64,000 bases of DNA from Trypanosoma brucei (lineage: Eukaryota), in the NCBI GenBank assembly GCA_000002445.1, contig CH464491.1, positions 4,896,001 to 4,960,000 of the forward strand, read 5' to 3'. The notes beneath the pieces were generated by a model that saw nothing but the letters and a program-made list of their open reading frames with translations, ran no database searches and was not told the DNA's origin. Position 1 is the stretch's first letter, and each line of letters begins with the position of its first letter. A program made the position numbers and the translations under genes. Below, one piece after another: positions 20,925-50,039 of this stretch.

Positions 20925-21320
20925 CTTTTAATAAAAATGAGAACAATTCTTAGAATTCAAAAAAATATACTATACTCACAAAAACAGCAGCCATCAGAGC
21001 AAATTTTTTGTTACAAGCAAACTGGAAGAGATAAAAAAACAGGAGTTACTGGGCCAGCGCCATCAATGTAAGTAATGCAACCACAAAAAGCTTTCTTTCC
21101 TTGAGGAATTGCGCCAGTTATTTTGGTGAATTCTTCAGAAGTTTTGGCGGAAGCGCACCTATCTGTTGTTGTATCTCCTGTTCCTGTTTCTGCTTGTTTG
21201 GCATTCTCAATCAATGTGCACTTTTTGTCCTCGTCTGATCTGGAGTTAAAAACGCACCCCTGGCAGTTGAGCGGCGGAAGCCGTCGGGTTGAGGCAACAG
21301 ATTGCGATGCTGAAGGTTAA
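20925..21320 (-). pseudogene. Orphan VSG C-terminal-domain fragment
   Basis: KKAFCGCITYIDGAGPVTPV... The GPI tail NKKFALMAAVFVSIV is in another frame. No N-domain upstream. Confidence 0.6.
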
Positions 21321-21699
21321 TTTCTAATTTTATTAATCTTTCTCCCCATATATTAGTGTTTTTAATTTATTACCCCCTTGAAAACAAATCGTATCCCGTA
21401 GTAAACTTCCACGCGCCAGCGTAAAACAAAAAGAAGGAAAAATTTGAAGGCTTGCGCACAGCAAAATGCAGAGCTGAAATTCACAAAAGCAAAATGAACA
21501 TAAGTGTAACGATGTGGAGATAAAAATGAAAGTAAAAAAAAACGCTGACGTCTGCAGTAGAAGTAAGTGGCAACCTTGTTGTTAAAAAAAAAGAGCCGGT
21601 GCATCATCAAAAAATATGGAAATAAATTTAAAAAATGAATCCCAAAAAGATAAAATCTGGCATTTAAAAAAAATTAAGCGCCGTTGCATGGCTTAGCGG

Positions 21700-21840
21700 C
21701 GAATAAGGGTTAGGGTCCGCATAACAAAAGAGCTGCTGCACCATTAAGAAAAAAGTGAAAAGTCTCGACGCTTTACTGCTAGTAAATAAAAATATTTTTA
21801 GTGAGAAGACAATGAAAACCCTAACCCTAACCCTAAACGG
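21700..21840 (-). repeat. Telomere-hexamer-bounded element, copy 1
   Basis: GAATAAGGGTTAGGGTCCGCATAACAAAAGAGCTGCTGCACCATTAA...CTGCTAGTAAA...AAACCCTAACCCTAACCCTAAA. Homologous to the copies at 31005-31195 and 55510-55600. Confidence 0.6.
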
Positions 21841-22167
21841 CTAAACACCACCGGGAAATCTGGACACTCTGCGCGGTGTGCCTGGTTGTACACCAAAAGA
21901 AATGCAGCGCGCCGCAAAAAAAATTTGGCACTCTTCACCCTAAAAAAATAAAAATTAACTCTTAAAATCAAAAACCTAAAAATGCCGAAATGAAAGACCA
22001 AAAATTTACCCTAACAATGTTTGCTAGAAAATTTAACCCTGACCTTCCTTCATTCTTTTCTTCTTTATTCGTTTTCAACAAAAAACAAGGAAAAAAAAAT
22101 TCACCCATCAGGAAATTTTACAGAGTCACAATTTGACGAACACACATTATTTTCGGGAAATTGTAAG

Positions 22168-22183
22168 GTGTTAAAATATATCA
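22168..22183 (-). promoter_or_regulatory. VSG 3'UTR 16-mer (exact TGATATATTTTAACAC on the minus strand)
   Basis: GTGTTAAAATATATCA on +, 40 bp downstream of the VSG stop at 22223. Confidence 0.8.
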
Positions 22184-22222
22184 AACAGCAAAGTTTTTTT
22201 TTTAAAAAGAGGGGAAATTTGT

Positions 22223-23787
22223 TTAGAAAATCAAGCCCACAAATGCAGAAGAAACCACGCTGAGAGCGAATTGCTTGTTTAGGAGAAAACTACCATTTCG
22301 GCATTTCTCTGTATCCTTGTCATCCTCATTATCTTTACCCTTCCTCCATGCACAATTTTGTTTCTCGCCTGTTTTGTCACTTTCACAATCAGGCTGATTT
22401 TGGTGCCTTGCACATCCAGATGTGGTTGCAGCTCCTGCACCTGCTCCTACTGTTTTGGTTGCTTGTTGTTCTGCTGCTTTTGCTGGATCTAATGAGCACT
22501 TTTTGTTTGCATCAGTGGCATTGCCGTTCCACTTGCAGGGATCATTGCATTTTTCGCTTTTTGTATGTTTGTTGCATTCTGCTTCCGTGGGGAGCTGTTT
22601 CTTTACTACTGGGGCTGTTGTGCTGAGGACCTGGACGGGATTTTGGTATAGATAGCTGTGGACTGTTGCGTTTATTAAACGCAGCTGGGCTTCAATTGTA
22701 TGAAGTGCGCTTAGGGTTTTGTACTTGTTTTGCAGCTTCTGTGCAGTATTCACTAGGTGCTCAGCCCATGGTATCCCAGCCTTTCCTTTGGTGAAAAGCT
22801 CCGGTTTGTAGGCGGCACACTTGCCTCCATTGCTAGCTTTGTTGCCGGTGCAGCCAGCTTCGCCGGTGGTGTCTAGCTCGCCAAGTACGTAATTTTGCTT
22901 GGTGGTGCTGCCCTGCTTGTGTTTCAATTTTCCTATGAATGTCGCCAGCGCCGACGTGACCGTTGCTTCGTTTAGTTCGTGGTGCGGCGAAAACGCTTGG
23001 CAGCACTTGAGTAGGTTGTCTGCTTCGGCGAGGTAGTTTGTGTCCGCGGCCGGTGGTGTGTCCAGGTTTGTAGCGGTGCACGTGTTAACGCATGCCTTGC
23101 CGTGTGTTGCTGTGCTCGTTCCATGTTTAGCACATAAACAAGTTATGTCCAGTAGATTGAGCTGCCGGCTTTGTTGTCGGCATCGGCGCCGCTTTTGCCA
23201 CAGCTGTCTTCTCTGGTTTTGCTTGCTGGTATTGGCTTGAATTCCGCCGGTTTTGTTATGGTGCCATACAGGGCTAAGTTCTGTTCTGCCGTTACGTCGG
23301 TCATGGAAAGCTCTTTGGATTTGCTTTGTGCTACCTTAAAGAGTTCTAGCGCATGTTGAGACAAAAGTCTAACCCGGTTCGCGGTTTTCTCGGTCGGCGC
23401 TAGGGTCGCCCATAGTGCTTGAGCCTCTTTGGTTCGTGTTTTGGGAGTTGATTTGGCTTCCTTGTACAGCGGCCAGTTATTTTCCCACCCTGGTCTGTCC
23501 GCCTTTTCTTGCGCTGTTAGGCTGCTCCAATCCTTGTCCTCTAGAACGGCGTTGGTGAAGTTTTGGTCACTAACACTGAGGTTTGCTGCGAGTATGTCTA
23601 GGGTGAGTTGCTTATTTTGTGTGTCGTCAGTTATTGCTGCCGGTTGAGTTTGTGCTAAGTTAGCTAGCGCGCAGAGTGCCGAAAATGGCTCTATGTTGTC
23701 ATTGTCGGCGCTGTTAGATTGTACACGTTTTAGTGCCGATAAAGACAGTACTAGAGCTGCTATTAGAAGCAACGTCGCCATTTGCAT
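22223..23787 (-). pseudogene. VSG pseudogene (internal frameshift)
   Basis: N-domain ORF 23143-23787 (signal MQMATLLLIAALVLSLSA, SALCALANLAQT). C-terminal ORF 22223-22927 ends CRNGSFLLNKQFALSVVSSAFVGLIF. Confidence 0.8.
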
Positions 23788-29760: not shown

Positions 29761-29949
29761 AAAAACATTATATCAATCACTTTGCATATCTTATCACTAT
29801 ACTACCTTTACACCCAAAAGCCAATATCATACCAAGATGTCATACTTTTCTCAAAAAATCATATTTTACAAAAGTGTTAATTTTGTAATATTTCACTAAA
29901 TTCTCTCAATGTAGAAATTTTTATAAAAGTGAGCAAAAAATCTTCAAAA

Positions 29950-30410
29950 ATCCTTAAAATAATAAAATAATACCAAACTCACAAAAGAAGCAGCCATCAT
30001 GGCCAATTTCTTATTGGCGAAGAAACTAAAAGAGGGGCATTTAACCTTTTCTTTTTCATCATCGTTATCTTTCCCACTTCTCCATCCACAATTTCGCTTG
30101 CCATCTGTTTTGTCATTTTCACAAGCGGTTTTATCTTTGTGCGCTGCACACCCGGTTGCAGCTCCTGGTCCTTCTCCTGCTGGGGTTTCTTGTTACACTT
30201 TTTTCCATTCATTTTGCAGTGTTTTCCATCTTTTTCGTCAGGGCCTTCCCATTTGCAGTTTCCATTCTTTCTCCAATCAGCTGCTTTTGTTAATCCTTCG
30301 CATTCTTTGTCGGGGGATCGTGGCTGAAGCTGCATAAGCTTTGCCGGCTCTATAATGGTGCTCGCCACATCGGCGATGCTCAGGCGGGTGGAGTTAAAAA
30401 AAATCATTTA
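29950..30410 (-). pseudogene. Orphan VSG C-terminal-domain fragment
   Basis: ORF 29997-30407: ...DKECEGLTKAADWRKNGNCKWEGPDEKDGKHCK... The tail FFANKKLAMMAASFVSL is in another frame. No N-domain. Confidence 0.6.
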
Positions 30411-31000: not shown

Positions 31001-31004
31001 GCAA

Positions 31005-31195
31005 ACTCATAGGGATTAGGGTGCGCATAACAAAGCAGCCGTCGCTCCATTAAAATTTTGAAAAAGATCTAAAGCCGCGCCGTTTCGCTGCTAGAAAAAA
31101 ATTAGTATCAGGGGAAATAACCCTACCCTAAGCCTGGAAACACTCCCTAACCTACCTACCAACTTCCTACCTCCCTACCCACCTCCTCTCCTGCC
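31005..31195 (-). repeat. Telomere-hexamer-bounded element, copy 2
   Basis: CATAGGGATTAGGGTGCGCATAACAAAGCAGCCGTCGCTCCATTAAAATTTT...CGCTGCTAGAAAAAAATT...AATAACCCTACCCTAAGCC, then a CCTA-rich tail. Confidence 0.6.
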
Positions 31196-31340: not shown

Positions 31341-33071
31341 TCAAATAGCAATAATTTTTAGCAAAGGAGAAAAAGAGGGGAAAATTGTTTTAAACAGCAA
31401 GGCTACAAAAGCAGCAGAAACCACGGTGAGGGCGAATTTCTTGGTTAGTAGAAAACTACCATTTCGGCATTTTTCTGTATCCTTGTCATCTTCATTATCT
31501 TTACCTTTTCTCCATGCACAATTTTGTTTATCACCTGTTTTGTCATTTTCACAAGCGGCTTTATCACTGCCGTGTCTTGCACATCCAGATGTAGCTGCTG
31601 CTGCTCCTGAAGCTCCATCTCCTGCCCCTTGGTTTGCCTGTCCTTCTCCATCTTTAGGTTTGCATGTTCCACCTGTTTCAGTTTTTCCATCCCATTTGCA
31701 GTTATTTTCTGTACATGTGGTGTTTGTTTCATGTTTGCTGCAAGTTTTTTTACCGTGCTCGACTGGGTTGCCGTCACTGCCGGCAGGTTTGCTGGTTTCT
31801 ACTGTCCTTGAGGCGGCAGCTTTTAGTTCTGCCCTTGCCGCAGCCTGGATGTTGGTTAACTCCCTTGTGAGCTCTGCGTTCTGTAACATTACTGCTTCGG
31901 CAGCATCTAGTTTGTCTGCCGCCGACAGTAGTTTTGCTTCCCACGGTAGTTGACCATTGCCGTCGGTTAGGTGCGGTGCGTAGTCGACACAGACCCCGTT
32001 GTCCGAGCTGCCGTTGCACTTGCCATCGGTATGCGGTTTGCCCAGGACGTACATGGCTGGTCCGGTTGATGCCGCCGCTGCTTGGGCCCCGATTAGCGTT
32101 GTAAAGCTATTTAGCTGTTGTCGGATAATCTGTCCTGTTATGCCGCTGGGTGGCTTTTTGAGGCCGCAACCGTTTTTCAATTTTGTGTATTCGGTGGCGG
32201 TGGTTGTTTTGCCGCTACCGTCTCCTACTGTCTTTATGCTTATTCCATGTTTGCAAATGTTGTTGCCGTTGGTCCTGGTTTTCGCCGCTATACAGATCCA
32301 CATTAAGTCGTGGCTTACTGAGATTGCTATTTTTTCCTTGGTTGCGCCGGCTGATTTGCAGTGCTCATCGATGTTAGTTTCAAGTTTCGCCTGCTCAAAC
32401 TTGTTGTTGCCGTCGCCGTACAGTGCTTCCAAGATAAGCGTCTTTGCGTTGTCCGTTTCTGTGTTCGCTGATACCGCGTTGGCCTGGATGTGCTCTAGGA
32501 TTGCCTTGGCGCGTTCGTGAATTTTACTAATGAAGGCGTTGGCTGCTGCTTTGGCCTCTGGGTTTTGCGGCATCGGGTAAGCTGCTTTTTGTGGATTGCC
32601 TGTTTTGGCGGCTATAGCTTCCAGGTTTTGTTTTCATTGTTTTATTTGTTCGAGTTTTTGGTCGTCTTTCGTCGGCGAAAGTTCACCGTCTTTGTTCGTC
32701 TTGAACGATTCCGTTGCCGTCGTCAGGTTGAGGAGAAATATGTCGTTGACAATTGCCGCTGCTGTTCTCGTGTCTAGTGTTATTGACAGGTCAGGCGCAC
32801 CTTTTCCGAGACTGAGAAGGTCACAGAGCGCTTTGTATTCCCCAGCATTTCTGTTTGTTGCGGACACCGTTAAGGCAGCTCCAAATAGACACAGTGCGCC
32901 GAGTACTTTGCTCATGTTTGTGGTTCGAAGTTCATTTTTTCGCAGATCCATCTTTGTTTGTCGTATTGGCTTAGATATGTGCTGTGCGCGCATAAGGGTG
33001 ATTTGCGTCATGTGGTGAAAAAGGGCGTAGAACAGCATACAGGACATTAAGTACTCGGTGATTTTTGACAT
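31341..33071 (-). pseudogene. VSG, near-intact (single frameshift around 32573-32634)
   Basis: Signal MSKVLGALCLFGAALTVSA plus the N-domain start (32634-33071). The rest is in a second frame (31341-32573) and ends DKQNCAWRKGKDNEDDKDTEKCRNGSFLLTKKFALTVVSAAFVALLF. Confidence 0.75.
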
Positions 33072-33299
33072 TTTAGTTTTACTCCCTGACAGCCTGGCTA
33101 CGAGTAATTAGGTTGCGTACTGGGGCCCCGATGTTCCTTGTCTGTATGGCAGGAAGTGTTGGCCTTTCTTCAGAATTTCTTAGTTTTAACCAAACCCCTC
33201 TGTCAGCCGCTTCACCACAGATACTCCCAGATTCAAAATCCTATTTTTTCCATCTATTGCATATTTTTGAAACGTTTTCAAAGAGTTCGTACTAAACCC

Positions 33300-34140
33300 C
33301 CTTCCTTCCAACTGTTCACACCAAATAATTTTTTTTTACAATCATCTTAGCTTTCCCTTTCCACGCAATTGATTTTCCAGGAAAATGAATAAATGGAGAC
33401 TCTCCAACCACTTTACTATTTAGAATAGAAAAGAATCTCTCCTCATAATTCAATCCAATCATTCCTATCCTCAAAACTAATCTTTGCCTAACAGCTTATT
33501 TTCGAATTGCACATCAAATGAGAAAAAGTTTGCATATACTTTGATCTGACCACCACTCCTCGCTTCCTTAGTATTTCATTAAATGCATGTTCAAAACTTT
33601 TAAAAGCCCACACTCCTGCTGTTAAACCACCACCATTGAGATAAGGTTTGCCACTAGGAGTTGATATTAGTAAATTAGTTAATTTTTCATTCTCTTCTAT
33701 CCTGTTTCCAACATTAAAAAACTAATAACATCTCTCCACACACTCTTTGTGATACGAATTCATAACCAAATCTAACTGAGGAGCATAACATTCTGATGTT
33801 GTCATGAATATAATAGGGGAAATGTGATTCTCTTTTGCTATATCTTCTTCACTAAACTTCTCTTCATTTTCCGCACTATTTTCTATAAAATATTCCACAC
33901 ATTTTCATATTTTTCTCCGTCACTAACTATAACATCAGATCTATCCAAATGAATTTAAATATCCTCATGACTTGTATTATGGCTTTTCAAAAATTTCAGA
34001 ACCCATCTAGGCCATTTGATATGACTGTACAAACCCCTCATTTCAATTGTGATAATTTCAATATTACTTAGTTTGGCACTCAACACGAGTCTACACCATC
34101 CTTGATTTGCATGAGTTTGAACTACAACTGCAAACACTCT
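33300..34140 (-). pseudogene. Conserved hypothetical ORF family (partner of the glycosyltransferase pseudogene), frameshifted
   Basis: MFAVVVQTHANQGWCRLVLSAKLSNIEIITIEMRGLYSHIKWPRWVLKFL...STPSGKPYLNGGGLTAGVWAFKSFEHAFNE. Homologous to 52616-53500 (VFAVLVQSHEIQGWCRLILSAKLSDVEIITVEMGGLYSNVKRPRWVMEFL; PPSGNPYLGVCGLIARVWAFGKFEYAFGE). Function not recognised. Confidence 0.35.
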
Positions 34141-34371
34141 GTAGTTTTTTATTTTAACCTTGCAGTTAAAGCGGTAGAAGAACCACTAACAATGACAAAA
34201 GGGTGGTACTAGCCTTGACCGGTCCTTTGAAGTTAGATAAAGAGGGTCGGAAGGGATAGTAGCATGGTAAAAGCTGGTAGTTCTATAGCGGTCATGTTTT
34301 CATATAGATATCAGTGGCTGATTGTCCATGTTTTTTTAATTTTTTGTTTATGTTAAATTAAAAACGCCGCG

Positions 34372-35471
34372 TTAACATCGAAACTCTGCCCACCGTTCGT
34401 CAATTTTTGTAAGCTTTTTAACCAGAGGCTTCAGCATAGAATCATATTTGTAGCGGTTTTTGAGGTGTATGTAGTCTTCTTCGCTTATGTGATGGAAAAC
34501 GATAGTTTTTTCAGGCGTTAAATTAGTTGCGTGAAAAGCGCTCCTGTTTGCATGCATTACATACCAACAATCTTGCATCTCTACTGTCAGCAAACCATCA
34601 AATTTCAGTCTATTCCTTAATACCTCTCCCACCATAATATCTTCATTAAGTGCTCTAAAATCGATATTTCAAAATTTCTGAATTTAATTGGTGATTTTAC
34701 TAACTTTCTCAAAGGATCATAATCAACAATTTCCTTAAATACATCTCTTGATAGTGTGGAAGCATAACCAATAGTGTGCCATGTAATTTCATCACTAAAT
34801 TCTTTGGGATAACCAACAGCTCTTTCCATATTCAATTTCTATCGTGGCAATATTTTAAGGTGCTGTAAATACAATAGCACTCTCATAAAAATATCATCAT
34901 CTGCTTTCATTATACAGGAAATAGTTGGTTTAAATATTTCAACTGCAAATTTGAACCACAAGTATGTTTTTCTACTCATTGTCAGTTCCGCTTCCCATCC
35001 CCAATTACCCGCATCTCACACTTTCTCATTTGTTGTTGGATTCACATCGCAAACAGGCAAAATAATAATATCCTGATTTAACTCTGATTCTTCTTCAACA
35101 ATTTCTCTGAGCTCGCAATTGTTATTTGTATGAGGTGAAAGTGCATACACTATAAGCAACTTTCCAGTGAAATTATTTAATTTTCTCGCCACTTCAGGAT
35201 AACTCCAACACGTTTCTCTCTGTAAATGTCGTCGTCTAAATCCTTCATCATTATCTATTGAAGGTATTCCAGCTACAACCAAATAATTTTCAGTTCTCCA
35301 AATCCTCCTCACATCCAGCGGAACAAATCTCATATACTGATTTTCACCAATTTCAAGTGAAGTGGATTCACCTTTGTCATACAAGCTGTACAGCAATACG
35401 AGTAGATTAATACCCATAACAATAAAAGTTAAACAGCATATAGTCCCATAAATACTTCCTATACACTTCAT
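34372..35471 (-). pseudogene. Beta-1,3-glycosyltransferase-like (UDP-Gal/UDP-GlcNAc-dependent GT family) pseudogene
   Basis: Type-II N-terminal membrane anchor (CCLTFIVMGINLLVLLY). Conserved ETCWSYPE...ILPVCDVNPT block shared with the 48587-49522 copy, which also has a KADDDIF (DxD) motif. Three frames: 35016-35471, 34617-34835, 34372-34635. Confidence 0.55.
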
Positions 35472-36157
35472 AAGATGTTATCATAATAGCAATAAAGAAC
35501 TTGAAATTCCTTAAAGATTAATAGAAACCCATAAAAAGAGAAGAAGGCAGTTGCGCAGATAATATGATTAGTTATGAAGTAATGTTTACCAATATATATG
35601 CATTGCTCTGATATTTTTATGATATAGCTGTTAAACAGTGTGTGCTCAATGTTTAGGGATTATATTTCATCACGGACCTACACTTTTTATTTTTTTAATT
35701 CACATTCAAGTACGACTGCTGCTGCACGCTACATGAACCCCTATGTACATTGTTATGGCAGTTAAAGTAGTCAGATACACTACTGGTCCTCTTGTTTACT
35801 ATGAAGTTTAAGCCTTTGTGCTGTAAATATGCCAACTATCCACTTTCCCAAATTTTCCACCGATTTGGCTTCTTAGCTATTTCTACTGTTGTTGCAGATA
35901 ATATAGTAACTCCATTTGGGCCGCACACTAGACTGAGCGTGCTTCTTATATGCCGCCCATAACCACCATATGTATGATAATGTCCATCGTCATGTTTGTG
36001 TATGGAACTACACATATTCCATTTCTCCCTCTATTTGTATTTCTGCGCGTCCTTCAATATAATCCTCAGCGCTCTCCCACTTACTTACATATATTGCGTA
36101 TTTCATAGCTATAAGTGCCTCTAGTTTTGCCGTTCATTGCCCCTCAACCGCTACTTT

Positions 36158-36225
36158 TATTATAATATTCGTATATTCACACTCACAATACTCCCCTTTA
36201 TTACTATCATTACTATTACTATAAT
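36158..36225 (-). repeat. 70-bp repeat unit (reverse)
   Basis: TTATTATAATATTCGTATATTCACACTCACAATACTCCCCTTTATTACTATCATTACTATTACT. Confidence 0.75.
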
Positions 36226-36375
36226 CTTCCATTACTCCTAAGATGAAAACAAACAAAATGAATTAAATTAGAAAATTTATCATTTTTCACAGTCTATCTT
36301 TTTTGTTTTTAACCCATAGGCACAAGACATGCACATTTTAATAACTTTTAAAAAGATTCACGTTTTCATCAAAAA

Positions 36376-37892: not shown

Positions 37893-39713
37893 AGTCTACT
37901 TATTCTTGGCGGCACCTTTTTTTTGTTACTACTGTGGTTTTGGTGTTCTGCTTGTAGGTCTTTTTGTTAGTGTTTAAAAGGGGGAAGATCCTTGTGGTTT
38001 CTGATGTTAACGGTGCGAGATTGGCCGCTTACATGGAGGTTGGTCGTCTGCGGGTTGGCTTATAATTAATGCATCAACTTTCCAAACTTGTACACAAAAT
38101 AACCTCTTCCCTTCTTGCCTCTGTTTTTTTGTCGCTACGCTTCTCTCTTTGTGTCAAACGCTATAAGCTCCCATATTTGCGTGCTATATCAGTGTTGAAA
38201 TATCTTCCCAGTTACCACTTTTGTCAGCACAAGTATTGTAACTAACATCGCAGTTTCTCGACCAAACGTCTGCGAAACTACAGGCGCTTTCCAGTTAGCT
38301 CCATCACCGCTTTTCTTCTCACTTAGCGATACTGTGGCATAGTTAAACCTAATCTTGCTTATAGTTGAGCTTAGTAGATTTGTTGAGGCTTTTTCATTGT
38401 TTTTCGGTGTACATTTTGGTGCTTCTTACCTTGGGTTTGTTGGTGAACTCTTTTTGGATGTTAAATTGTTTAATTGGGGATTTATTGTTTCTAAAGCTTT
38501 TATTCTGTCTGTCATACTGACTCAGTCCTTTTGTGTAGCGCATAAAGATAAATGCACAAAGAAATCACTCTATATATACTCATTTTGACACTACCCCTAG
38601 TTATTTTCAGATTTCTATTTACTTTTTTCATTCGTTCAAATATTAGAGTTTGACCATATGTAGCGTGAAACTGAGAACTGGATGTTGTTTCTAAGTTGGT
38701 GTTAATGTGTTAGCCCTCTGGCCATCTCTGTACGCAATAATTCTCCGCTTGTGGTTACGCCTTGTTTGCGCACATTATCTTAATAATTGTTATGATTTCT
38801 TTGATTTCTGTTTTATCGTGCACTTTTCTAGCATATGGTGCCCTGCCGGAAGCTATTGTGCATCTAGACGTATTTTTATTTTAATTGTCCCCTTTGTGTC
38901 CCCTTTACTTTAATAATAAGATTCTGTGGATGCCGCTGAAGTGGCCGCTGCTTATATTAGATTTTTCTGAATGTACTAATACCGCTGTAGAATGCTCTAC
39001 TATACTTGATGCCTTGATACTTCTTGCGGTTTCAGTATTAGGTAATTTATTATTGGGCTATTATATATATTGATTATCCTTTGAAAGACAAATGTCTCAC
39101 TTATTATAATATGTAAGTTATCATTTTCAATGGTCGTGCCTTTCACCTGTTCACCCTCTGAAAGGTTAGCTTTGTCATAGAAACCCATTGTGTCAATGAC
39201 GTAAATTTTGTTTTGCGACACTTTTCTACTTTATCTTTTAACCATATCGTTCCATATTAAATTCGGTAGAATATCTTTATATTTCTGGCAGTCCATGTGA
39301 CTCCGAAAGCAGTGCATATATTTCTATGCCTGAAAATTCAAAGCGTGTGTTCTTTATTGGTTCTACTTGGAGGAAGATCTTCATTACATGTTTCATAATC
39401 AAACATGTACCGTTGCTGTTCTGCACTGAGACGGTTCCTCTTCTGCATGTCCTTCCGATTGTTGCTTATTTTACATCACCAGATTATTTTGGCTCGAAAC
39501 TTGTTTGTAACTAGTAGGCTCCGTCCCTTTTCTTTTCTTTCATTTTGTGCTTCAACTCTGCGTAAGCAAGAACTCTTATATAATTTGTCCTTACTACGAA
39601 AACAAGAAATTTGGAAGCCGTATGTCAGTGTGAATTTTGCAGAGTTCTGCCGCTAATTCTCCACTCTTCACGAAGGTTATCTAATGGTTAATACGTGCTC
39701 TACTCCCTTGTAA

Positions 39714-40283
39714 CGCCAGCCACCTCAACGTGGTGCCAGGGTCTAGTGCTCCGTCTCATCGGGGGAAGCCAAGAGCCAGCAGCGTTCCTCTTTTGGAACA
39801 CTGCTGTGCTCCGGCTACGGCATCATACAGCACAGGGATCAGCAGCGTCTTGCTGGGACACCGTTTTTCATTTGTCGGTCCCTGGGCACGTGCCAGCGTG
39901 TCATCAGCAGTATCATCCGCACTAAGATGCTGCTGTCCGGTGATATGGAAGAGAATCCCAGCCCGTCGTTGTGCGGGATGCAGTGGAACTGCGCCGGGCT
40001 ATCTCAAGGAAAGAGATTAGCACTCCACAAAACCCTTGTTGATGAGCGGATCGCCTTTTGTCTGTTGAGTGAGACAAGGATGACGCCTGGAGAGGCGGCT
40101 TGCTTTAGCGTTGCTGGCTACCAACATCACGGAATAGCTCGTAACTGCAAAGGAGGTGGTGTATCAATACTAGTGAGGGAGGACCTACCAGTCGAGACCG
40201 GTATAGCCGTTGTTGGTCACATTGAAAAAGTGCATGCAACAATTCACCTTGCACGTGAAACGGCGCTGACTGTCACGTCGGCA
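39714..40283 (+). mobile_element. ingi 5' fragment (about 570 bp) in + orientation, abutting the poly(A) end of the - strand ingi
   Basis: GCCAGCCACCTCAACGTGGTGCCAGGG... encodes MLLSGDMEENPSPSLCGMQWNCAGLSQGKRLALHK...ARETALTVTSA. It ends one base before the poly-T at 40284. Confidence 0.85.
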
Positions 40284-40551
40284 TTTTTTTTTGAATTTTC
40301 TTCGTGCCTTCGTGAGAGTTTCCCCCCACTGGCGCGGCCATCAGCCATCACCGTAGAGCCCTGAGATGCTATCGGTCTGGCAACTGTGGCAGAGTCTCAC
40401 CTTTTTTATTCAGCCTAACACTCTCTATAATTTTTGTTGTAGCTCCGCAGTTGAACGGAACACAGCAGATGGGGCGACAAGCCTCCCACCCTAGACTCTC
40501 CCAAAGATGTCAATTAGCAATCCTTTTGTTTTGATTTTTGTTATTCGTTTA

Positions 40552-42444
40552 TTATTCTCTTCCCCTCTTTCTGTTTTTGTTGCTTGTTGACTGCATACCC
40601 CTTCTGTCTCTGAGGGTGTCTGGACTATTCCTGCGGTTGGTGCTTTTCCTGCTAGCTCCACACTCGGCAATAAGGGGGGAAGTTGCAGAAGGGAGAGTGG
40701 GTTGTATGACTGTTACCTTAGGGGAGGACTTCACCTGCGGCTGGCTCCGTTCAACCGCAATGAGAAACTGCGCCAGCCTTTTGGAAAAACATATATCCTG
40801 CACAAACACACCTTCTACCGCAAACCTGACACGTAACTCCTTCAAACCGGGACAGCTCATCAAGTGCAGCGACGTTTCTTCGCAGTCGCCGCGTTGGCTG
40901 GTAACAGCGCGCTCTACCTTCATACCGTGCATCTTCTTTTGATGTAGGGTGAGGCCAGTTTTGTTAGCACACTGCCTTCCGCATGTCGGGTACACCAACA
41001 TGGATGTGTTTGTATGCGGGGAATCAGTGGCACACAATTTCGTGCTTTTGCTGCATTTAAGCTCGACTCCCTCACCTTTGTGGAAAGCCTTACAGTGTCG
41101 GATGAGGGAGTCCCTGCAACTGAGCACTTTTTGACACACACCACACTGCACCTCGACCTTCCCAGGAATGTCAACGTTTCCCTCACGGGCACGCTTACGA
41201 GGGAATTGCACCACCACCACGGTACCGTCCTCCGTCACTATGCTTTTATGTTTGAATTTCTTGTGTAGTGACAGGGAAGAACGTGTACCGAAGCTCGCCT
41301 CGCACAGGTCACATTGAAATGGCAGCTTCCGTGTATCCTGAGAGGCTGGCGCTGCTGGGGATCTACCATCTCCTTGCACTGAGTCCTCGTTCTCTCGCCC
41401 CCTTTTCACGCGGCAACTACCGCTACCTATGCCATGTATTGTTCTAAGGTGGTGTAATAGTCGGCCTGGCACTGCGAATTTGGAGGCACAGAGGGTACAA
41501 TGAAGCACCTGCGGTCTCATCGGGACTCGTGTGCTCGATGGTAGAGGAACGATCGCTACCACTGGAGGGGGCTCCGGGGGGATATCCACTGCAGGTGTTG
41601 CATCGCCGTATTTGATCCTCCGGAGGGCATCAGCTCGCACAAAGCCGTGTTTGTTTACCATGTGCGTTACAGCACTCGAGCGGCATTGATATGTGGCATC
41701 ACATTCCGTACATTTGGTCGGTTCGGAGGTTCTCTGAAGAGTGCGTGTCACAACAGTTGGGGCTGTTTGTATTGTTGGCCCTATCGCTGAATGTTGCGGG
41801 TTGCACCATCGGCACTGTGGAGGCACACTCGGGTTGATCTTTCGCAACATCCATCCATAGTGCCTTGAAGACCCAACCCGAAAGCGTGCCAGTCCCGTTT
41901 CTTCTTCCCTCGTCAGTTCTTCCTTATGTTTTGTCGGAAAGTGGTTGCCCGTGATACCAAACCTATGAGTGTTCTCATGGACTTCTTCCGACATAAGCAC
42001 TCGCTTCGCATAATCAATGATGTCGGGGATCCATGTATCTCGCAGCTGTGGTAAATCAGCGGCCTTTTTGGCCATTTCATCGCAAACCTCATTCCGTTTC
42101 ACGCCACAATGACCAAACACAAATTGCAGTCGGATACGTATCTTCCTTCTCTGAACTTGAAGCAGAAGCCTCCATAGTCGTCTTAGAATTGGGTCCGTTA
42201 CGGCTAGGAGGCCTGTCTGCAGTGCTGTTAACATTGACAGCGAGTCAGAGAAGATGGACAACCTGCTCGGTGTGCTTCTGTATGCCGGAAGCCATTTCAG
42301 CAGCCGTTGCAGTCCTATCTCTAATGCTACGCATTCCGCTCTGTAACTGCATGAGAGTTCCCCTGCTCCGGTCTTGGGTGCACAAATCAGCGTGTTGTTT
42401 CTATAGAGCAGGGCAGCTGCTCCGGACTTCTCACCGAGGGACAC
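40552..42444 (-). CDS. ingi ORF: RNase H-like plus C2H2 zinc-finger C-terminal region (630 aa, GTG start as called by the ORF track)
   Basis: SLGEKSGAAALLYRNN...CTECDATYQCRSSAVTHM...CGVCQKVLSCRDSLIRHCKAFH. Same frame as the upstream ORF, separated by a TGA. Confidence 0.8.
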   Translation of the reverse strand: MSLGEKSGAAALLYRNNTLICAPKTGAGELSCSYRAECVALEIGLQRLLKWLPAYRSTPSRLSIFSDSLSMLTALQTGLLAVTDPILRRLWRLLLQVQRRKIRIRLQFVFGHCGVKRNEVCDEMAKKAADLPQLRDTWIPDIIDYAKRVLMSEEVHENTHRFGITGNHFPTKHKEELTREEETGLARFRVGSSRHYGWMLRKINPSVPPQCRWCNPQHSAIGPTIQTAPTVVTRTLQRTSEPTKCTECDATYQCRSSAVTHMVNKHGFVRADALRRIKYGDATPAVDIPPEPPPVVAIVPLPSSTRVPMRPQVLHCTLCASKFAVPGRLLHHLRTIHGIGSGSCRVKRGRENEDSVQGDGRSPAAPASQDTRKLPFQCDLCEASFGTRSSLSLHKKFKHKSIVTEDGTVVVVQFPRKRAREGNVDIPGKVEVQCGVCQKVLSCRDSLIRHCKAFHKGEGVELKCSKSTKLCATDSPHTNTSMLVYPTCGRQCANKTGLTLHQKKMHGMKVERAVTSQRGDCEETSLHLMSCPGLKELRVRFAVEGVFVQDICFSKRLAQFLIAVERSQPQVKSSPKVTVIQPTLPSATSPLIAECGASRKSTNRRNSPDTLRDRRGMQSTSNKNRKRGRE

Positions 42445-42456
42445 GGATCCATCAGT

Positions 42457-45027
42457 TCACAATTCGTAGTGCTCTCGCCGCGGTGGCTCCTTCCCCCTCC
42501 GTGCAAAATGCCGTGCAATCCACTTTTCGGAAGCCTCCCTTTTGGCATCGTCAGGGTCATCAGCGCACGCAGGCTTTATCTGCGTGTGAAATAGTGATCG
42601 GCAGCTGTGGCGGAGCGTCGATGTCTCTAGTAGGTGCTCGCGTGGCTCAATGCGGAGGTGAAGGTAAGACCGCATGGTGCGGGAATGTAGGGCTTTGACT
42701 AGATGTTTGCTGTGGTATACTTCCTCAGCACTGCGCCGCAAACATCCGCCTCGTGACTCACACATCAGCATGAATTTCATGCTGCGCACAAGAGTGGTCG
42801 TCTTGAGTGGCAGGAGGTTTGCCTCCAGCAGAGAGTCCTCTTTGCGCGTCCCATGGGGTATGCCAGCTATGATGCAACTGGCTTTGTGTTGTGCTGCTGA
42901 AAGGAGATCGCGACTTCGTTCCGAAGCGTCCCAGTACCATACCTCAATGCCATACATGGTATGTGCCTGTACGAGTGCTAGATAAAAAGCTCTCAGTACT
43001 TGTCGTCTTGGCCCCCATGTAGAAGCTGAGATGGCTGCTATCTGCAGTAGTCGGAAGTCCATCTTGCGTCTCGTTTCGGCCGCATGTGTTGCCATCCCTT
43101 GCAGACACTGGAATGTTACTCCTAGAAGCTTCGGTGTCCTGTCAGCTCCTATTCTTTCGCCGTCCAGTTGTAATGTAAGGGGGTGGCGCTCTATACACCC
43201 GAAGAGTTTGCACTTTGTTTTCGCTACGTTGACAGACATAAAGTCCTTTTTTGACCACTGTAACACCACGTTGAGACCGCATTGTAGTGTGTGGTTGATG
43301 ACATCCCTCTCGGTGTGCCTCGCAAGTAGCGTTAGGTCGTCTGCAAAGAATCCGTGCTGCAGTAACGGCACTTCTACAAGGCGTTGGCTCAACGAGTTCA
43401 TGACAATAATGAACATGATTGGGCCAAGGACAGTTCCTTGTGGCACTCCTCGCTCAAATGTTCTGCTTCTGGAAAGCTTCTCCTTGAATCTCACTCTGCC
43501 AGTTCGGTTACTCAGAAATGATACGCACCACTTCACAATGTGGGGTGATACCTTCATTCTGTGCATTTCCCTCGCAATGCTGTTGTGTTCTACTGTATCA
43601 AATGCCTTCTCGTAGTCAACGAATACAGCACCCGTACGATATTTGTGCGTGGGACGGCAGAGGGCAGCGCGGACGTGGAGGAGTTGTTCGAGCGTTGAAC
43701 ATCCGGGGCGAAAGCCTGATTGCTGCGGCGTCAGCTGGAACTCAACAATGTCTCTAAGCCTCGTGGCAATTATGCGCTCCATGACTTTGCATAGACAGCT
43801 CGTGAGCGTCACAGGCCTGTAAGAATCGAGGTCCTCCGCCTTTTTTCCGGCCTTCAGGATGGGGATGATAACACCAGTCTTCCATGCAGGCGGCACGACT
43901 CCCGTTCGTAGGCTCTCATTGAATAGCCTCAGAACAACATTCAGCGCTGTTCTGCCGAGATGTTGCAGTGCCTCGTTGTGTAAGCAATCAGTTCTTGCTG
44001 CAGATCCACTCGGTAGCAGTTTGATCGATCTCCGTAGCTCAGCAATCGTGATGGGACTGAACTCACTCGCTATCGTCTTTATGGGTGCCGGTGGGTGTGA
44101 GTCGGGGTGTCTTCTTGCGCGGGACGAGTACAGTTTAATGAACCTCTCAGCTTGACAGTAGTCCGTGATGGCCGCGTTATCAACAAGTACAGCCGGTGTG
44201 GTTAGTAGTCGTGGCGCATATACCTTCTTGACAATGTGCCAACTGCAGCGGTCTGACACCGCAAGTCTGGAGCATAGCGTGCTCCATCTCTTCTTTGTGG
44301 TACGGTCCAGTATCTGCTTACGCGTGGCTACCAACTTTTCCCTTCGGTGGGAGGGTCCGCATCCAGCGATCTCTTCATCGAGTTTCGCGAGCTCAGGTGT
44401 CCAATGTGATGGCGTTGCTCTGCAGCCACGGGGGACGGAGACCTTCGTCGCAATGCGGATGGCGGAGCTCAATTTCTGTTCCAGGGTGTTGACGGTTTTT
44501 TCTCTACCAATTTTCCCGCAGAGCTCGTCAACCTTGAGACGGAAATTCCTCCAGTTAGCTTTTAGCCATGCGTACATGGGCTTTCGAAGCCGCGGGCAAC
44601 TCAGTGCATCTGTGTCCTCTCCGACGATAACGTCGAAAAATATGTGATGGTGATCGCTATCGGGAGAATACAGCGATGTCCACGTGTCCACTGTGCAATT
44701 CCTTGACAGTGTCACATCAGGGGTGGACTCCCCGTGGTGGCGCGCGTACTTTGTGCACTCACCAGTGTTGCAGACCAGAAACTGGTTGTCAATGCACCAC
44801 TGTGTGAGGGTTTCACCCTTGGTATTTGGTGGGTTCGCGCGATCCCATGCCAACGCGTGTGCGTTAGCCTCTACACCGATGAGCTGGGCCCCGTCAGTCG
44901 TCAGAAGCGTATCTAGGTCAGTTGCCGTGAAGGTGTGTTTTGGTGGGATGTATGCCGACGTGACAGTCAGCGCCGTTCCACGTGCAAGGTGAATTGTTGC
45001 ATGCACTTGTTCAACTCCCCCCAACAA
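42457..45027 (-). CDS. ingi ORF: endonuclease plus reverse transcriptase (856 aa)
   Basis: FVDYEKAFDTV, FADDLTLL. About 95% identical to the 10521-13076 ORF. Confidence 0.85.
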   Translation of the reverse strand: MLGGVEQVHATIHLARGTALTVTSAYIPPKHTFTATDLDTLLTTDGAQLIGVEANAHALAWDRANPPNTKGETLTQWCIDNQFLVCNTGECTKYARHHGESTPDVTLSRNCTVDTWTSLYSPDSDHHHIFFDVIVGEDTDALSCPRLRKPMYAWLKANWRNFRLKVDELCGKIGREKTVNTLEQKLSSAIRIATKVSVPRGCRATPSHWTPELAKLDEEIAGCGPSHRREKLVATRKQILDRTTKKRWSTLCSRLAVSDRCSWHIVKKVYAPRLLTTPAVLVDNAAITDYCQAERFIKLYSSRARRHPDSHPPAPIKTIASEFSPITIAELRRSIKLLPSGSAARTDCLHNEALQHLGRTALNVVLRLFNESLRTGVVPPAWKTGVIIPILKAGKKAEDLDSYRPVTLTSCLCKVMERIIATRLRDIVEFQLTPQQSGFRPGCSTLEQLLHVRAALCRPTHKYRTGAVFVDYEKAFDTVEHNSIAREMHRMKVSPHIVKWCVSFLSNRTGRVRFKEKLSRSRTFERGVPQGTVLGPIMFIIVMNSLSQRLVEVPLLQHGFFADDLTLLARHTERDVINHTLQCGLNVVLQWSKKDFMSVNVAKTKCKLFGCIERHPLTLQLDGERIGADRTPKLLGVTFQCLQGMATHAAETRRKMDFRLLQIAAISASTWGPRRQVLRAFYLALVQAHTMYGIEVWYWDASERSRDLLSAAQHKASCIIAGIPHGTRKEDSLLEANLLPLKTTTLVRSMKFMLMCESRGGCLRRSAEEVYHSKHLVKALHSRTMRSYLHLRIEPREHLLETSTLRHSCRSLFHTQIKPACADDPDDAKREASEKWIARHFARRGKEPPRREHYEL

Positions 45028-45526
45028 CGGCCATACCGGTCTCGACTGGTAGGTCCTCCCTCACTAGTGTTGATACACCACCTCCTTTGCAGTTACGAGC
45101 TATTCCGTGATGTTGGTAGCCAGCAACGCTAAAGCAAGCCGCCTCTCCAGGCGTCATCCTTGTCTCACTCAACAGACAAAAGGCGATCCGCTCATCAACA
45201 AGGGTTTTGTGGAGTGCTAATCTCTTTCCTTGAGATAGCCCGGCGCAGTTCCACTGCATCCCGCGCAACGACGGGCCGGGATTCTCTTCCACATCACCGG
45301 ACAGCAGCATCTTAGTGCGGATGATACTGCTGATGGCACGCTGGCACGTGCCCAGGGACCGACAAATGAAAAACGGTGTCTCAGCAAGACGCTGCTGCTC
45401 CCTGTGCTGTATGATGCTGTAGCCGGAGCACAGCAGTGTTCCCCATGAAAGGAACGCTGCTGGCTCTTGGCTTCCCCCGATGATACGGGGTACTGGACCC
45501 TGGCACCACGTTGAGGTGGCCGGCAT
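45011..45526 (-). CDS. ingi ORF N-terminal segment with canonical 2A-like motif DVEENPGP
   Basis: MLLSGDVEENPGPSLRGMQWNCAGLSQGKRLALHKTLVDERIAFCLLSETRMTPGEAACFSVAGYQHHG (apurinic endonuclease domain start). Confidence 0.75.
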   Translation of the reverse strand: MPATSTWCQGPVPRIIGGSQEPAAFLSWGTLLCSGYSIIQHREQQRLAETPFFICRSLGTCQRAISSIIRTKMLLSGDVEENPGPSLRGMQWNCAGLSQGKRLALHKTLVDERIAFCLLSETRMTPGEAACFSVAGYQHHGIARNCKGGGVSTLVREDLPVETGMAVVGGS

Positions 45527-45646
45527 CGCCAGGGGGAACAGGTCATAGCATCCAACTACAAAACGGTTCGCAGCTGGCAGTTTCTGGCAGTAAAAACAGC
45601 CGATAACATAAGGAGGTCAGGCTTCAAAGCCCTAGTTGTTTATGGA

Positions 45647-47149: not shown

Positions 47150-47720
<571 letters not shown>

Positions 47721-49522: not shown

Positions 49523-50039
49523 TTTCAAGAAATAAAACCAGCAAATACAATAGGAATTCATCATATAAGAGAGACAGATTATGCATTTTTAGTGGAATTA
49601 TGGAAAAAACTGGACTCACCACGGCGTCAGGAACAGAGAATAACGTATTTGCAACCGTTTTTGGAGAAAGCAAAATGATTGCACTCTAAAATAAGCACAA
49701 GCTGCTGTGCGCAAGCTGATAAACAGGCTTCATAAAGGGGAAATGGAAACGAGAATAAGACCACATTCACCAGAAAACCATAACATCAGAAATGACCACG
49801 CAAGTGGCGAATACGAAAAGACAAACGGCCACACAAGCGCTTCTTATCAACAAAGTTTAGGCTCTAGGTCCAAGCAAGCGAGCAACATTATAAACCGTGC
49901 ACAATTACACTATGCTAACACAAACTTTTTTTATACTGAAGACCCTGTTTCTTATGCAATATATTACGGCCCCGGAAACAGTGGCAGTGCAACCCGGATA
50001 CAGCGGTGCATAGCACAAAGAATTATGCTGACTCGTTGA

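What the first reader, a model, noticed from the sequence alone, without database searches (positions are those of the whole stretch)
31341..36240. Diverged inverted segmental duplication of a [70-bp repeat - glycosyltransferase - unknown ORF - VSG - telomere-like element - C-terminal fragment] unit
The minus-strand block 36225 to 29950 reads, in order: 70-bp repeat, glycosyltransferase pseudogene (34372-35471), unknown ORF (33300-34140), VSG (31341-33071), telomere-like element, C-terminal fragment. The plus-strand block 47150 to 56180 has the same order: 70-bp repeat, glycosyltransferase (48587-49522), then an extra VSG plus 70-bp repeat (50040-51795), unknown ORF (52616-53500), VSG (53805-55280), telomere-like element, C-terminal fragment. 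Glycosyltransferase paralogue identity is only about 65% at protein level, and the VSGs differ, so this is old. The extra VSG-plus-70-bp cassette dropped between the glycosyltransferase and its partner ORF in the + copy looks like a cassette-sized insertion bounded by 70-bp repeats.
Basis: seen in the sequence. Interest (0 to 1): 0.55.

Follow-up and report, generated by a model that had tools for sequence, protein, structure and literature searches.

The report
Two old GT–ESAG3 pseudogene pairs
In a trypanosome surface-antigen (VSG) gene array, the same pair of decayed sugar-transferase genes occurs twice in opposite orientation; the two pairs are ancient relatives, and the rest of the supposed duplicated unit is the standard layout of antigen-gene cassettes, so this is ordinary subtelomere evolution.

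Summary
The features are all present, in the stated order and at the stated coordinates, in a Trypanosoma brucei-type subtelomeric VSG array. The "unknown ORF" is an ESAG3 pseudogene. ESAG3 was recently shown to be the VSG O-glucosyltransferase.

Homology specific to copies A and B is confined to two gene bodies:
- The PF01762-type glycosyltransferase (about 1.05 kb, 79% nt).
- ESAG3 (about 0.9 kb, 70-79% nt).

The intergenic DNA and the VSGs are unrelated. The 70-bp repeats, post-repeat flank, VSG 3' ends, telomere-like element and C-terminal fragment are generic cassette parts. A third cassette (20.9-26.2 kb) has them without either gene.

Both gene pairs are old and diverged mostly under purifying selection: dS 0.60 and 0.72, dN/dS 0.23 and 0.31. 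They then decayed independently, with no shared lesions. One Trp codon is TAG in A and TGA in B.

The best reading is an ancient duplication of a linked GT-ESAG3 pair, later reshuffled by cassette recombination. It is not a preserved whole-unit inverted duplication. The interposed VSG segment in B has no 70-bp repeat at its 5' edge. The opposite orientation follows an array strand switch bracketed by inverted ingi ends. Interest is low. Genome-wide linkage of the two genes could not be tested.

The parts
36151..36225 (-). Copy A: single 70-bp repeat opening the cassette
   Evidence: blastn to the 70-bp repeats at 47157-47312 and 51649-51786, 78-83%; core motif at 36179-36195
35528..36150 (-). 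Copy A: generic flank that follows a 70-bp repeat (motif ATGACGATGGaCAT at 35980-35993)
   Evidence: Aligns in patches with the flank upstream of ESAG3 in B and with 24609-24688. The motif occurs 5 times against 0.05 expected
34372..35527 (-). Copy A: UDP-Gal/UDP-GlcNAc-type glycosyltransferase pseudogene (ATG 35471, stop 34372; 2 in-frame stops and 1 frameshift; homology with B starts 56 nt upstream of the ATG)
   Evidence: 62-71% aa to T. brucei TREU927 GTs in the alignment; 68-73% BLASTP local identity; PF01762, 22.4 bits, just under the cutoff of 23
33210..34157 (-). Copy A: ESAG3 pseudogene covering codons 42 to about 355. It lacks the first 41 codons and has 2 frameshifts and several stops, including TAG at Trp184
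31341..33071 (-). Copy A: class-B VSG pseudogene, split between ORFs 32634-33071 and 31341-32573
   Evidence: Pfam VSG_B 2.8e-37 and Trypan_glycop_C 4.5e-26; 3'UTR 16-mer at 31318-31333
31016..31190 (-). Copy A: telomere-like element. A degenerate TTAGGG tract (31117-31190), then a spacer of about 85 nt, then TTGTTATGCGCACCCTAA (31016-31033)
29947..30407 (-). Copy A: VSG C-terminal-domain fragment with its 3' end, preceded by a T-rich stretch (30440-30980) and followed by a degenerate 70-bp repeat (29680-29758)
   Evidence: (51% aa to the VSG-A CTD)
47150..47720 (+). Copy B: 70-bp repeats and a long TAA run, with a 100-N assembly gap at 47362-47461
48532..49690 (+). Copy B: glycosyltransferase pseudogene (ATG 48587; stops after codons 170 and about 311; the probable C-terminal FW...C motif is in a shifted frame near 49668-49690)
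   Evidence: PF01762, 25.8 bits, above the cutoff
50040..51400 (+). Copy B only: extra class-B VSG pseudogene (VSG-X). No 70-bp repeat lies upstream of it
   Evidence: Pfam VSG_B 1.4e-18; CTD match at 50886-51386; sequence read
51640..51790 (+). Copy B only: two 70-bp repeats, followed by the generic flank at 51840-52566
52567..53581 (+). Copy B: ESAG3 pseudogene covering codons about 1-368. It has a 29-codon deletion (148-176), 3 frameshifts and several stops, including TGA at Trp184
53805..55301 (+). Copy B: class-B VSG pseudogene (ORF 53963-54979, with the CTD in another frame); 16-mer at 55318-55333
   Evidence: Pfam VSG_B 4.1e-36
55516..55598 (+). Copy B: shortened telomere-like element (GGGTTATTCGGGTTAGGA ... 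TTTTGATGCGAACCCTAACCCTTATTC)
55675..56192 (+). Copy B: VSG C-terminal-domain fragment, followed by TTAGGG and the next 70-bp repeat (56370-56440)
20950..23787 (-). Comparison cassette C, not part of the pair. It holds class-B VSG pseudogene 22205-23787, 16-mer 22168-22183, telomere-like element 21704-21842 and CTD fragment about 20950-21250. It has no GT or ESAG3
39704..45534 (-). Strand-switch region between the two arrays. It holds a full ingi-type non-LTR retrotransposon (40285-45534, genes on the minus strand) abutted by an inverted ingi 5'-end fragment (39704-40284)
   Evidence: Exo_endo_phos_2, RVT_1, RNase_H, zinc finger

Best explanation
The window is a Trypanosoma brucei-group subtelomeric VSG array. 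Blocks A and B each contain a decayed copy of the same two-gene segment. The first gene is a PF01762-type UDP-Gal/UDP-GlcNAc glycosyltransferase. The second, downstream on the same strand, is an expression-site-type ESAG3, the LH3-like VSG O-glucosyltransferase.

The most likely history has four steps.
1. A linked GT-ESAG3 pair was duplicated long ago. This is inferred from shared order and orientation and from similar synonymous divergence.
2. Both copies stayed functional for most of the time since. This is shown by dN/dS of 0.23 and 0.31 at dS of 0.6-0.7.
3. Each copy then became a pseudogene independently. This is shown by the absence of shared stops or frameshifts, and by the same Trp codon being hit by different stop codons.
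4. Ordinary VSG-cassette recombination remodelled everything around the two genes. The VSGs were replaced. About 3 kb (a VSG pseudogene, a 70-bp repeat and the generic flank) came to lie between GT and ESAG3 in B. The ESAG3 5' end was lost in A. This step is inferred.

The other 'shared' parts are the general grammar of a subclass of VSG cassettes and are not relics of this duplication. These are the 70-bp repeat, the post-repeat flank, the VSG 3'UTR, the telomere-like element and the CTD fragment.

The opposite orientation reflects the strand switch of the array. The 26-kb minus-strand array (13577-39703) is bracketed by inverted ingi 5' ends, so an ingi-mediated inversion of a once head-to-tail array is plausible but unproven.

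The arrangement in B's second cassette (70-bp repeat, ESAG3 pseudogene, VSG, telomere-like tract) mirrors the ends of some bloodstream expression sites. That suggests a telomeric origin for that cassette.
For: - Specific homology is limited to the two gene bodies. GT: 35527-34552 against 48532-49510, 79.3% over 980 nt, extending at 68% to 34472/49581. ESAG3: 34157-33210 against 52681-53543, 70-79%.
- These are the only GT and ESAG3 copies in the 64 kb.
- Identity of the genes: the ESAG3 copies match the BES ESAG3 cluster; the GT copies match TREU927 PF01762 proteins.
- Divergence (NG86): GT dS 0.60 (bootstrap 0.44-0.83), dN/dS 0.23. ESAG3 dS 0.72 (0.51-1.07), dN/dS 0.31. The dS intervals overlap.
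- Lesions differ between copies, and Trp184 is TAG in A and TGA in B.
- On shared columns, GT_A and GT_B are each other's nearest among the available paralogues: 74-80% against 65-77%.
- The order is unlikely by chance under a crude shuffle (P about 0.04).
- The generic nature of the other parts is shown by cassette C and by VSG-A being closest to VSG-C.
- Inverted ingi ends: 12995-13577 against 40284-39704, 95%.
- Literature: an ESAG3 pseudogene lies between the 70-bp repeats and the VSG in BES7 and BES15 (PMC2567434). ESAG pseudogenes are prevalent in VSG arrays (PMC4766357). GT genes are frequently subtelomeric (PMC4288722).
Against: - The ESAG3 tree does not resolve an A+B clade. A, B and BES ESAG3 form a 100% supported clade against GRESAG3-type relatives, but inside it A+B gets 25%, B+BES 52% and A+BES 24%. 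The two ESAG3 copies could therefore be independent offshoots of the expression-site lineage.
- Over full length, GT_A is about as similar to some TREU927 paralogues (69-71%) as to GT_B (68%).
- Only intact annotated paralogues could be compared. The many pseudogene copies elsewhere in the genome were out of reach.
- No intergenic homology survives. This is expected at dS of about 0.65, but it leaves the segment claim resting on two genes.
- GT and ESAG3 are not adjacent in B.
- No target-site-duplication evidence supports the ingi inversion.
Confidence: 0.6

Rival explanations
1. The entire six-part unit (70-bp repeat, GT, ORF, VSG, telomere-like element, CTD fragment) was copied once as a local inverted segmental duplication. 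A 70-bp-bounded VSG cassette was later inserted into the plus-strand copy.
For: All six kinds of feature occur in the same order in both blocks. A-B identity in the telomere-like element (57%) is about what neutral DNA would retain at a dS of about 0.65. B does carry about 3 kb extra between the two genes.
Against: - There is no homology in intergenic DNA or in the VSG N-terminal domains.
- The tail elements of A are closer to those of the unrelated cassette C than to B.
- The flank upstream of GT in A matches the flank upstream of ESAG3 in B, not the one upstream of GT in B.
- The interposed segment has no 70-bp repeat at its 5' edge.
- The VSGs lying between each unit and the central ingi are unrelated, so there is no palindrome.
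Confidence: 0.1
2. Coincidental or recurrent juxtaposition. GT and ESAG3 pseudogenes are simply common passengers in VSG arrays. They landed near each other twice independently, for example ESAG3 arriving with expression-site-derived telomeric cassettes and GT by separate events.
For: The ESAG3 tree is a star, with BES ESAG3 at its centre and no A+B clade. B's ESAG3 sits directly behind a 70-bp repeat and flank, as in BES7 and BES15, with no GT in that cassette. GT and ESAG3 are 3 kb apart in B. Both families are known to be frequent in subtelomeres.
Against: These are the only two copies of each gene in 64 kb, and both GTs lie upstream of an ESAG3 on the same strand (P about 0.04 in a crude shuffle). 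The dS values are similar for the two genes. GT_A and GT_B are mutual nearest neighbours among the sampled paralogues.
Confidence: 0.25

Closest known systems
Subtelomeric VSG-array cassettes of T. brucei (70-bp repeat, VSG, conserved 3'UTR 16-mer), interspersed with ESAG and GT pseudogenes and with ingi elements
   Same: All the hallmarks are present: 70-bp repeats, A- and B-type VSG pseudogenes, the TGATATATTTTAACAC 16-mer, ingi elements, and ESAG3 and GT pseudogenes. ESAG pseudogenes in arrays and subtelomeric GTs are documented.
   Different: Nothing essential differs. The repeated GT-then-ESAG3 order is not described in the papers I could search.
Bloodstream expression-site ends with an ESAG3 pseudogene between the 70-bp repeats and the VSG (BES7 and BES15 of Lister 427; Hertz-Fowler et al. 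2008, PMC2567434)
   Same: B's second cassette reads 70-bp repeats, ESAG3 pseudogene, VSG, TTAGGG-like tract. Both ESAG3 copies belong to the expression-site ESAG3 clade (72-75% aa to BES ESAG3, 100% bootstrap against GRESAG3-type relatives).
   Different: Here the tract is a short degenerate interstitial relic followed by an inverted CCCTAA motif and more array DNA, not a chromosome end. A GT gene lies upstream, which is not among the ESAG families that paper lists for BESs.
Segmental duplications and VSG/ESAG islands described in the T. b. brucei and T. b. gambiense comparison (Jackson et al. 2010, PMC2854126)
   Same: Multi-gene segments are copied, and the copies then diverge and are lost differentially.
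   Different: Those examples are mostly tandem, recent and still alignable. This pair is old (dS 0.6-0.7), inverted, 11 kb apart, and retains only the two gene bodies.
ESAG3, the VSG O-glucosyltransferase (GT-A fold, LH3/PLOD3-like; bioRxiv 10.64898/2026.01.27.701950)
   Same: The 'unknown ORF' belongs to this family. The metal-binding D110/D113 and H297 equivalents are still readable in both copies (IHLDRSD and IHVDESD; PFIHF). The fold assignment was reproduced here.
   Different: Both copies are pseudogenes lying outside an expression site.
[quoted passage not shown]
   Same: 62-71% aa to TREU927 members (alignment; 68-73% BLASTP local identity). The DDD motif (KADDDIF) is retained, and there is a PF01762 match.
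   Different: Both copies carry stops or frameshifts.

Membership tests
ESAG3 (expression-site type) | Sequence homology to BES ESAG3, closer than to GRESAG3-type relatives | tested here: met
   The only hit is the ESAG3 cluster, E=2e-99. 72-75% aa to P0001 against 24-31% to the other relatives. The A+B+BES clade has 100% bootstrap
ESAG3 (expression-site type) | GT-A fold with LH3-like DxxD, and an intact reading frame | tested here: not met
   The fold is confirmed for the family representative and the DxxD is readable in both copies. Both window copies have multiple stops and frameshifts. A lacks codons 1-41 and B lacks codons 148-176. They are pseudogenes
ESAG3 (expression-site type) | Location inside a telomeric expression site, co-transcribed with the VSG | tested here: not met
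   Both copies lie inside an array, with further VSG cassettes on both sides
UDP-Gal/UDP-GlcNAc glycosyltransferase (PF01762) | Match to the Galactosyl_T profile and to annotated T. brucei members | tested here: met
   B scores 25.8 bits (cutoff 23); A scores 22.4 bits, just under it. 62-71% aa to TREU927 proteins in the alignment (68-73% BLASTP local identity), three of which carry PF01762
UDP-Gal/UDP-GlcNAc glycosyltransferase (PF01762) | Intact coding sequence | tested here: not met
   A has 2 in-frame stops and a frameshift. B has 2 stops and a probable 3' frameshift
Segmental duplication | Two or more adjacent genes homologous, in the same order and relative orientation | tested here: met
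   GT then ESAG3 on the same strand in both blocks
Segmental duplication | Homology continues through non-coding DNA between and around the genes | tested here: not met
   No hits for A 34158-34471, B 49582-52680 or B 47730-48531. This is expected if the event is as old as dS of about 0.65
Segmental duplication | The component genes show equal divergence | tested here: met
   dS 0.60 (0.44-0.83) against 0.72 (0.51-1.07)
Segmental duplication | The two copies are each other's closest relatives for every component | tested here: inconclusive
   GT: yes among 5 sampled paralogues. ESAG3: unresolved star. VSG and the tail elements: no. Pseudogene paralogues elsewhere in the genome were not available
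VSG cassette | Upstream 70-bp repeat, VSG N- and C-terminal domains, 3'UTR 16-mer | tested here: met
ingi non-LTR retrotransposon | Element of about 5.2 kb encoding endonuclease, reverse transcriptase and RNase H, with a poly(A) end | tested here: met
   Two 5.25-kb copies, 95% identical. Exo_endo_phos_2, RVT_1 and RNase_H domains. A T-run on the plus strand at 40285 and 8321. The name 'ingi' comes from my own knowledge and was not tested against a reference sequence

The most novel reading that the evidence does not exclude
The GT-ESAG3 order is not an accident. On this reading, a PF01762/GT67-type hexosyl or GlcNAc transferase and an ESAG3-type O-glucosyltransferase formed an ancestral linked two-enzyme module, kept under purifying selection in subtelomeres. 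The neighbouring GT would be a candidate for the still-unknown enzyme that extends the O-glucose that ESAG3 places on class-B VSGs. The 2026 preprint states that the extending enzyme is unknown. All three VSGs that follow these genes here are class B.
Probability: 0.08. Interest if true: 0.6.

Novelty: new member of a known kind. Interest (0 to 1): 0.25.

Why it matters
Mostly it does not. Paralogous ESAG and GT pseudogenes scattered through VSG arrays, cassette shuffling at 70-bp repeats, and strand switches at ingi elements are established features of T. brucei subtelomeres.

Two modest points have value:
- The case shows how cassette grammar can mimic a long segmental duplication when only two gene bodies are truly homologous.
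- Both partners are glycosyltransferases that stayed under selection for a long time (dN/dS 0.2-0.3). If the GT-ESAG3 linkage proves to be genome-wide, it would nominate a specific GT subfamily for the unknown extension step of VSG O-glycosylation.

Tried and rejected
1. Fetching paralogous T. brucei loci. The look-up of encoding contigs found neither a window VSG nor three TREU927 GTs. The other sequence collections hold no trypanosome DNA, so genome-wide adjacency could not be measured.
2. Mining microarray supplements for the gene-order neighbours of GT genes. Pseudogenes are not listed there, so this was uninformative.
3. Shared inactivating lesions as proof of duplication after pseudogenisation. 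None were found. The one shared stop position uses different codons in the two copies.
4. An extended palindrome around the central ingi. Rejected, because the VSGs at 36.4-38 kb and 45.6-46.8 kb are unrelated.
5. The flank upstream of GT in A as unit-specific DNA. Rejected. It is a generic post-70-bp flank also found at 51.9, 24.6, 20.4 and 14.3 kb.
6. A head-to-head telomere fusion with an inverted VSG after the CCCTAA motif. There is no inverted VSG similarity in the T-rich stretch.
7. Target-site duplications to prove an ingi-mediated inversion. No matching flanks were found.
8. TTAGGGTTAGGG at 2132 as a fourth telomere-like element. Rejected. It is the 5' edge of a 70-bp repeat, as at 56370.
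9. Literature on interstitial or degenerate telomere tracts behind array VSGs. Nothing was found. Marcello & Barry 2007 is not held in the library.
10. Pfam scans on single ORF fragments of GT and ESAG3 gave nothing. Stitched translations and profile searches were needed.

Full report
**Context**

The window is a Trypanosoma brucei-group subtelomeric VSG array.
- It holds A-type and B-type VSG (pseudo)genes (Pfam), 70-bp repeats and the VSG 3'UTR 16-mer TGATATATTTTAACAC.
- It holds two 5.25-kb ingi-type retrotransposons that are 95% identical (8321-13576 and 40285-45534).
- Gene orientation is plus from 1-8 kb, minus from 13.6-39.7 kb, and plus from 45.6-64 kb.
- Block A of the finding lies in the minus array and block B in the second plus array.

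**Checking the observation**

All the listed features exist at the stated coordinates and in the stated order.

The dot plot that was asked for compared 29900-36300, reverse-complemented, with 47100-56200. It gave 14 colinear matches in the same orientation. They fall into three groups:
- 70-bp repeats, 78-83% identical.
- The glycosyltransferase (GT), 35527-34552 against 48532-49510, 79.3% over 980 nt.
- The partner ORF, 34157-33827 against 52681-53011 (78.6%) and 33748-33210 against 53003-53543 (70.3%).

The remaining matches are short and lie in the VSG C-terminal and 3' regions, the T-rich stretch and the C-terminal-domain (CTD) fragment.

It is not met.

A whole-window self-comparison and tblastn show only two copies of each of the two genes in the 64 kb.

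**What the genes are**

The "unknown ORF" is ESAG3.
- A stitched translation hits a single cluster (E=2e-99). Its members are ESAG3 proteins from bloodstream expression sites.
- tblastn with ESAG3 maps codons 42-315 in A, with nucleotide homology continuing to about codon 355.
- In B it maps codons about 1-368, with a 29-codon internal deletion.
- Both copies have several frameshifts and stops.
- In a tree rooted with more distant relatives found by an exhaustive HMMER search, A, B and BES ESAG3 form a clade with 100% bootstrap support.

ESAG3 has an LH3/PLOD3-like GT-A fold.
- A family profile hits the LH3 glycosyltransferase domain at E=4e-8.
- An AlphaFold model (pLDDT 88) has LH3 as its top Foldseek match.
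- This is already published. A 2026 preprint shows that ESAG3 is the O-glucosyltransferase of class-B VSGs.

The other gene is a UDP-Gal/UDP-GlcNAc-type glycosyltransferase.
- It is 62-71% identical to TREU927 proteins in the alignment (68-73% BLASTP local identity), three of which carry PF01762.
- The stitched translations reach or nearly reach the PF01762 threshold.
- Both copies are pseudogenes.

**How far the A-B homology really goes**

Outside the two gene bodies there is nothing specific to A and B.
- The GT-to-ESAG3 spacer in A (34158-34471) has no counterpart in B. Neither does the 3.1 kb between the genes in B, nor the 800 bp upstream of GT in B.
- The 620 bp between the 70-bp repeat and GT in A does align in patches. 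But it aligns with the DNA between the second 70-bp repeat and ESAG3 in B, and with similar DNA at 24.6, 20.4 and 14.3 kb. It is a generic post-repeat flank.
- VSG-A and VSG-B are related only at family level. VSG-A's best match in the window is VSG-C at 22.2-23.1 kb (40% over 324 aa).
- The VSGs on the ingi-proximal side of each block are unrelated, so there is no larger palindrome.

**The telomere-like tail**

Each of VSG-A, VSG-B and VSG-C is followed by the same compound element. In order it comprises:
- A degenerate TTAGGG tract.
- A partly conserved spacer.
- The junction TTGTTATGCGnACCCTAA, which carries an inverted telomere motif.
- A T-rich stretch.
- A VSG C-terminal-domain fragment with its own 3' end.
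- The next 70-bp repeat.

The junction motif occurs exactly three times, always on the strand of its VSG.

Cassette C has no GT or ESAG3. Pairwise identity of the element is 71% for A-C, 64% for B-C and 57% for A-B.

This tail is therefore a recurrent cassette type and not evidence for an A-B duplication. Its origin remains unexplained.

**Age and mode of divergence**

Nei-Gojobori estimates on in-frame segments:

| Gene | Codons | dS (bootstrap range) | dN | dN/dS |
|---|---|---|---|---|
| GT | 259 | 0.60 (0.44-0.83) | 0.14 | 0.23 |
| ESAG3 | 187 | 0.72 (0.51-1.07) | 0.22 | 0.31 |

- Most of the divergence therefore accumulated while both genes were under purifying selection.
- The two genes have compatible ages.
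- At this dS, neutral DNA would be about 56% identical. That explains why no intergenic homology survives.
- The inactivating lesions differ between copies. The single shared stop position, Trp184 of ESAG3, is TAG in A and TGA in B. Pseudogenisation was therefore independent and later.

**Are A and B each other's closest relatives?**

- For GT, on columns shared by all sequences, A-B is 74-80% against 65-77% to the four available TREU927 paralogues, and the two are neighbours in an NJ tree. The margin is small.
- Over full length, GT_A is as close to P0018 and P0019 as it is to GT_B.
- For ESAG3 the three-way relationship among A, B and BES ESAG3 is an unresolved star.
- Pseudogene paralogues elsewhere in the genome could not be retrieved.

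**The interposed segment in B**

- Between the GT end (about 49690) and ESAG3 (52567), B carries a class-B VSG pseudogene with no 70-bp repeat upstream. After it come two 70-bp repeats (51640-51790) and about 730 bp of generic flank.
- It is therefore not a cassette bounded by 70-bp repeats.
- Structurally, B is two ordinary cassettes. The first is 70-bp repeat, GT pseudogene, VSG pseudogene. The second is 70-bp repeat, flank, ESAG3 pseudogene, VSG, telomere-like tail.
- The second cassette matches the layout reported for expression sites BES7 and BES15, where an ESAG3 pseudogene lies between the 70-bp repeats and the VSG (PMC2567434).
- A is not pristine either, because its ESAG3 lacks the first 41 codons that B retains.
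- Insertion in B and deletion in A cannot be told apart without an outgroup locus.

**Orientation**

The minus-strand array (13577-39703) is bracketed by ingi 5' ends in inverted orientation: 12995-13577 against 40284-39704, 95% over 583 nt. Recombination between inverted ingi copies could have flipped a once unidirectional array. That would make A and B former direct repeats. No target-site-duplication evidence supports this, so it remains an inference.

**Conclusion**

The best-supported reading (about 0.6) is an ancient duplication of a linked GT-ESAG3 gene pair. Both copies were long functional, decayed independently, and were embedded in cassettes remodelled by the usual VSG recombination.

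Independent juxtaposition of two common array passengers remains a serious rival (about 0.25). A preserved whole-unit inverted duplication is unlikely (about 0.1).

A crude feature shuffle puts the GT-then-ESAG3 order at P of about 0.04. This favours real linkage but is weak.

The finding is a further example of known subtelomere dynamics. Its only forward-looking aspect is that both partners are glycosyltransferases. That would matter if the linkage proves to be genome-wide.

Noticed in passing
window 31016-31190 (-), 55516-55598 (+), 21704-21842 (-): A compound telomere-like element lies 130-330 nt downstream of three class-B VSG pseudogenes. It consists of a TTAGGG-like tract, a conserved spacer and an inverted CCCTAA junction (TTGTTATGCGnACCCTAA). 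Each copy is followed by a T-rich stretch and a VSG C-terminal fragment. I found no description of it in the searchable literature, and its origin (possibly a relic of a telomeric cassette) is unexplained.
   Followed up: partly
window 12995-13577 and 39704-40284: Inverted copies of the ingi 5' end (95% over 583 nt) bracket the whole 26-kb minus-strand VSG array. This fits an ingi-mediated inversion. Neither full ingi has matching target-site duplications.
   Followed up: partly
window 33210-34157 and 52567-53581; protein P0001: ESAG3 family profiles and an AlphaFold model match the LH3/PLOD3 GT-A glycosyltransferase domain. This agrees with a 2026 preprint showing that ESAG3 is the VSG O-glucosyltransferase. 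The finding's 'GT plus unknown ORF' is therefore really two glycosyltransferase-family pseudogenes side by side.
   Followed up: yes
window 33722-33724 (A) and 53027-53029 (B): The same ESAG3 tryptophan codon (Trp184) is a stop in both pseudogenes but through different mutations: TAG in A and TGA in B. It is a parallel hit that could be mistaken for a shared lesion.
   Followed up: yes
window 8083-8182, 8214, 47362-47461, 61645-61744: There are three runs of exactly 100 N, plus a single N at 8214. One run lies inside the 70-bp/TAA repeat that opens block B. The length of that repeat is unknown, and the local assembly should be treated with care.
   Followed up: no
window 35980-35993, 51920-51933, 24632-24645, 14305-14318 (also 20383-20433): A conserved stretch (ATGACGATGGnCAT and surrounding patches) lies about 100-200 nt downstream of 70-bp repeats in several cassettes (5 matches against 0.05 expected). 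It is a generic post-repeat flank that can mimic unit-specific homology.
   Followed up: partly
window 2130-2145 and 56366-56378: One or two perfect TTAGGG units sit directly at the 5' edge of 70-bp repeats (TTAGGGTTAGGGTTATAATAATAG...). Telomere hexamers thus also mark ordinary cassette boundaries here.
   Followed up: no
window 24007-24297 and 8225-8309: Two further short ingi/RIME 5'-end fragments. One lies inside cassette C upstream of VSG-C. The other abuts the poly(A) end of the first ingi, next to an assembly gap.
   Followed up: no
window 45647-46843 (+): A 398-aa VSG-like ORF with no Pfam hit starts 113 nt after the 5' end of the second ingi. The retroelement appears to sit at or in the 5' edge of this VSG cassette.
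   Followed up: no
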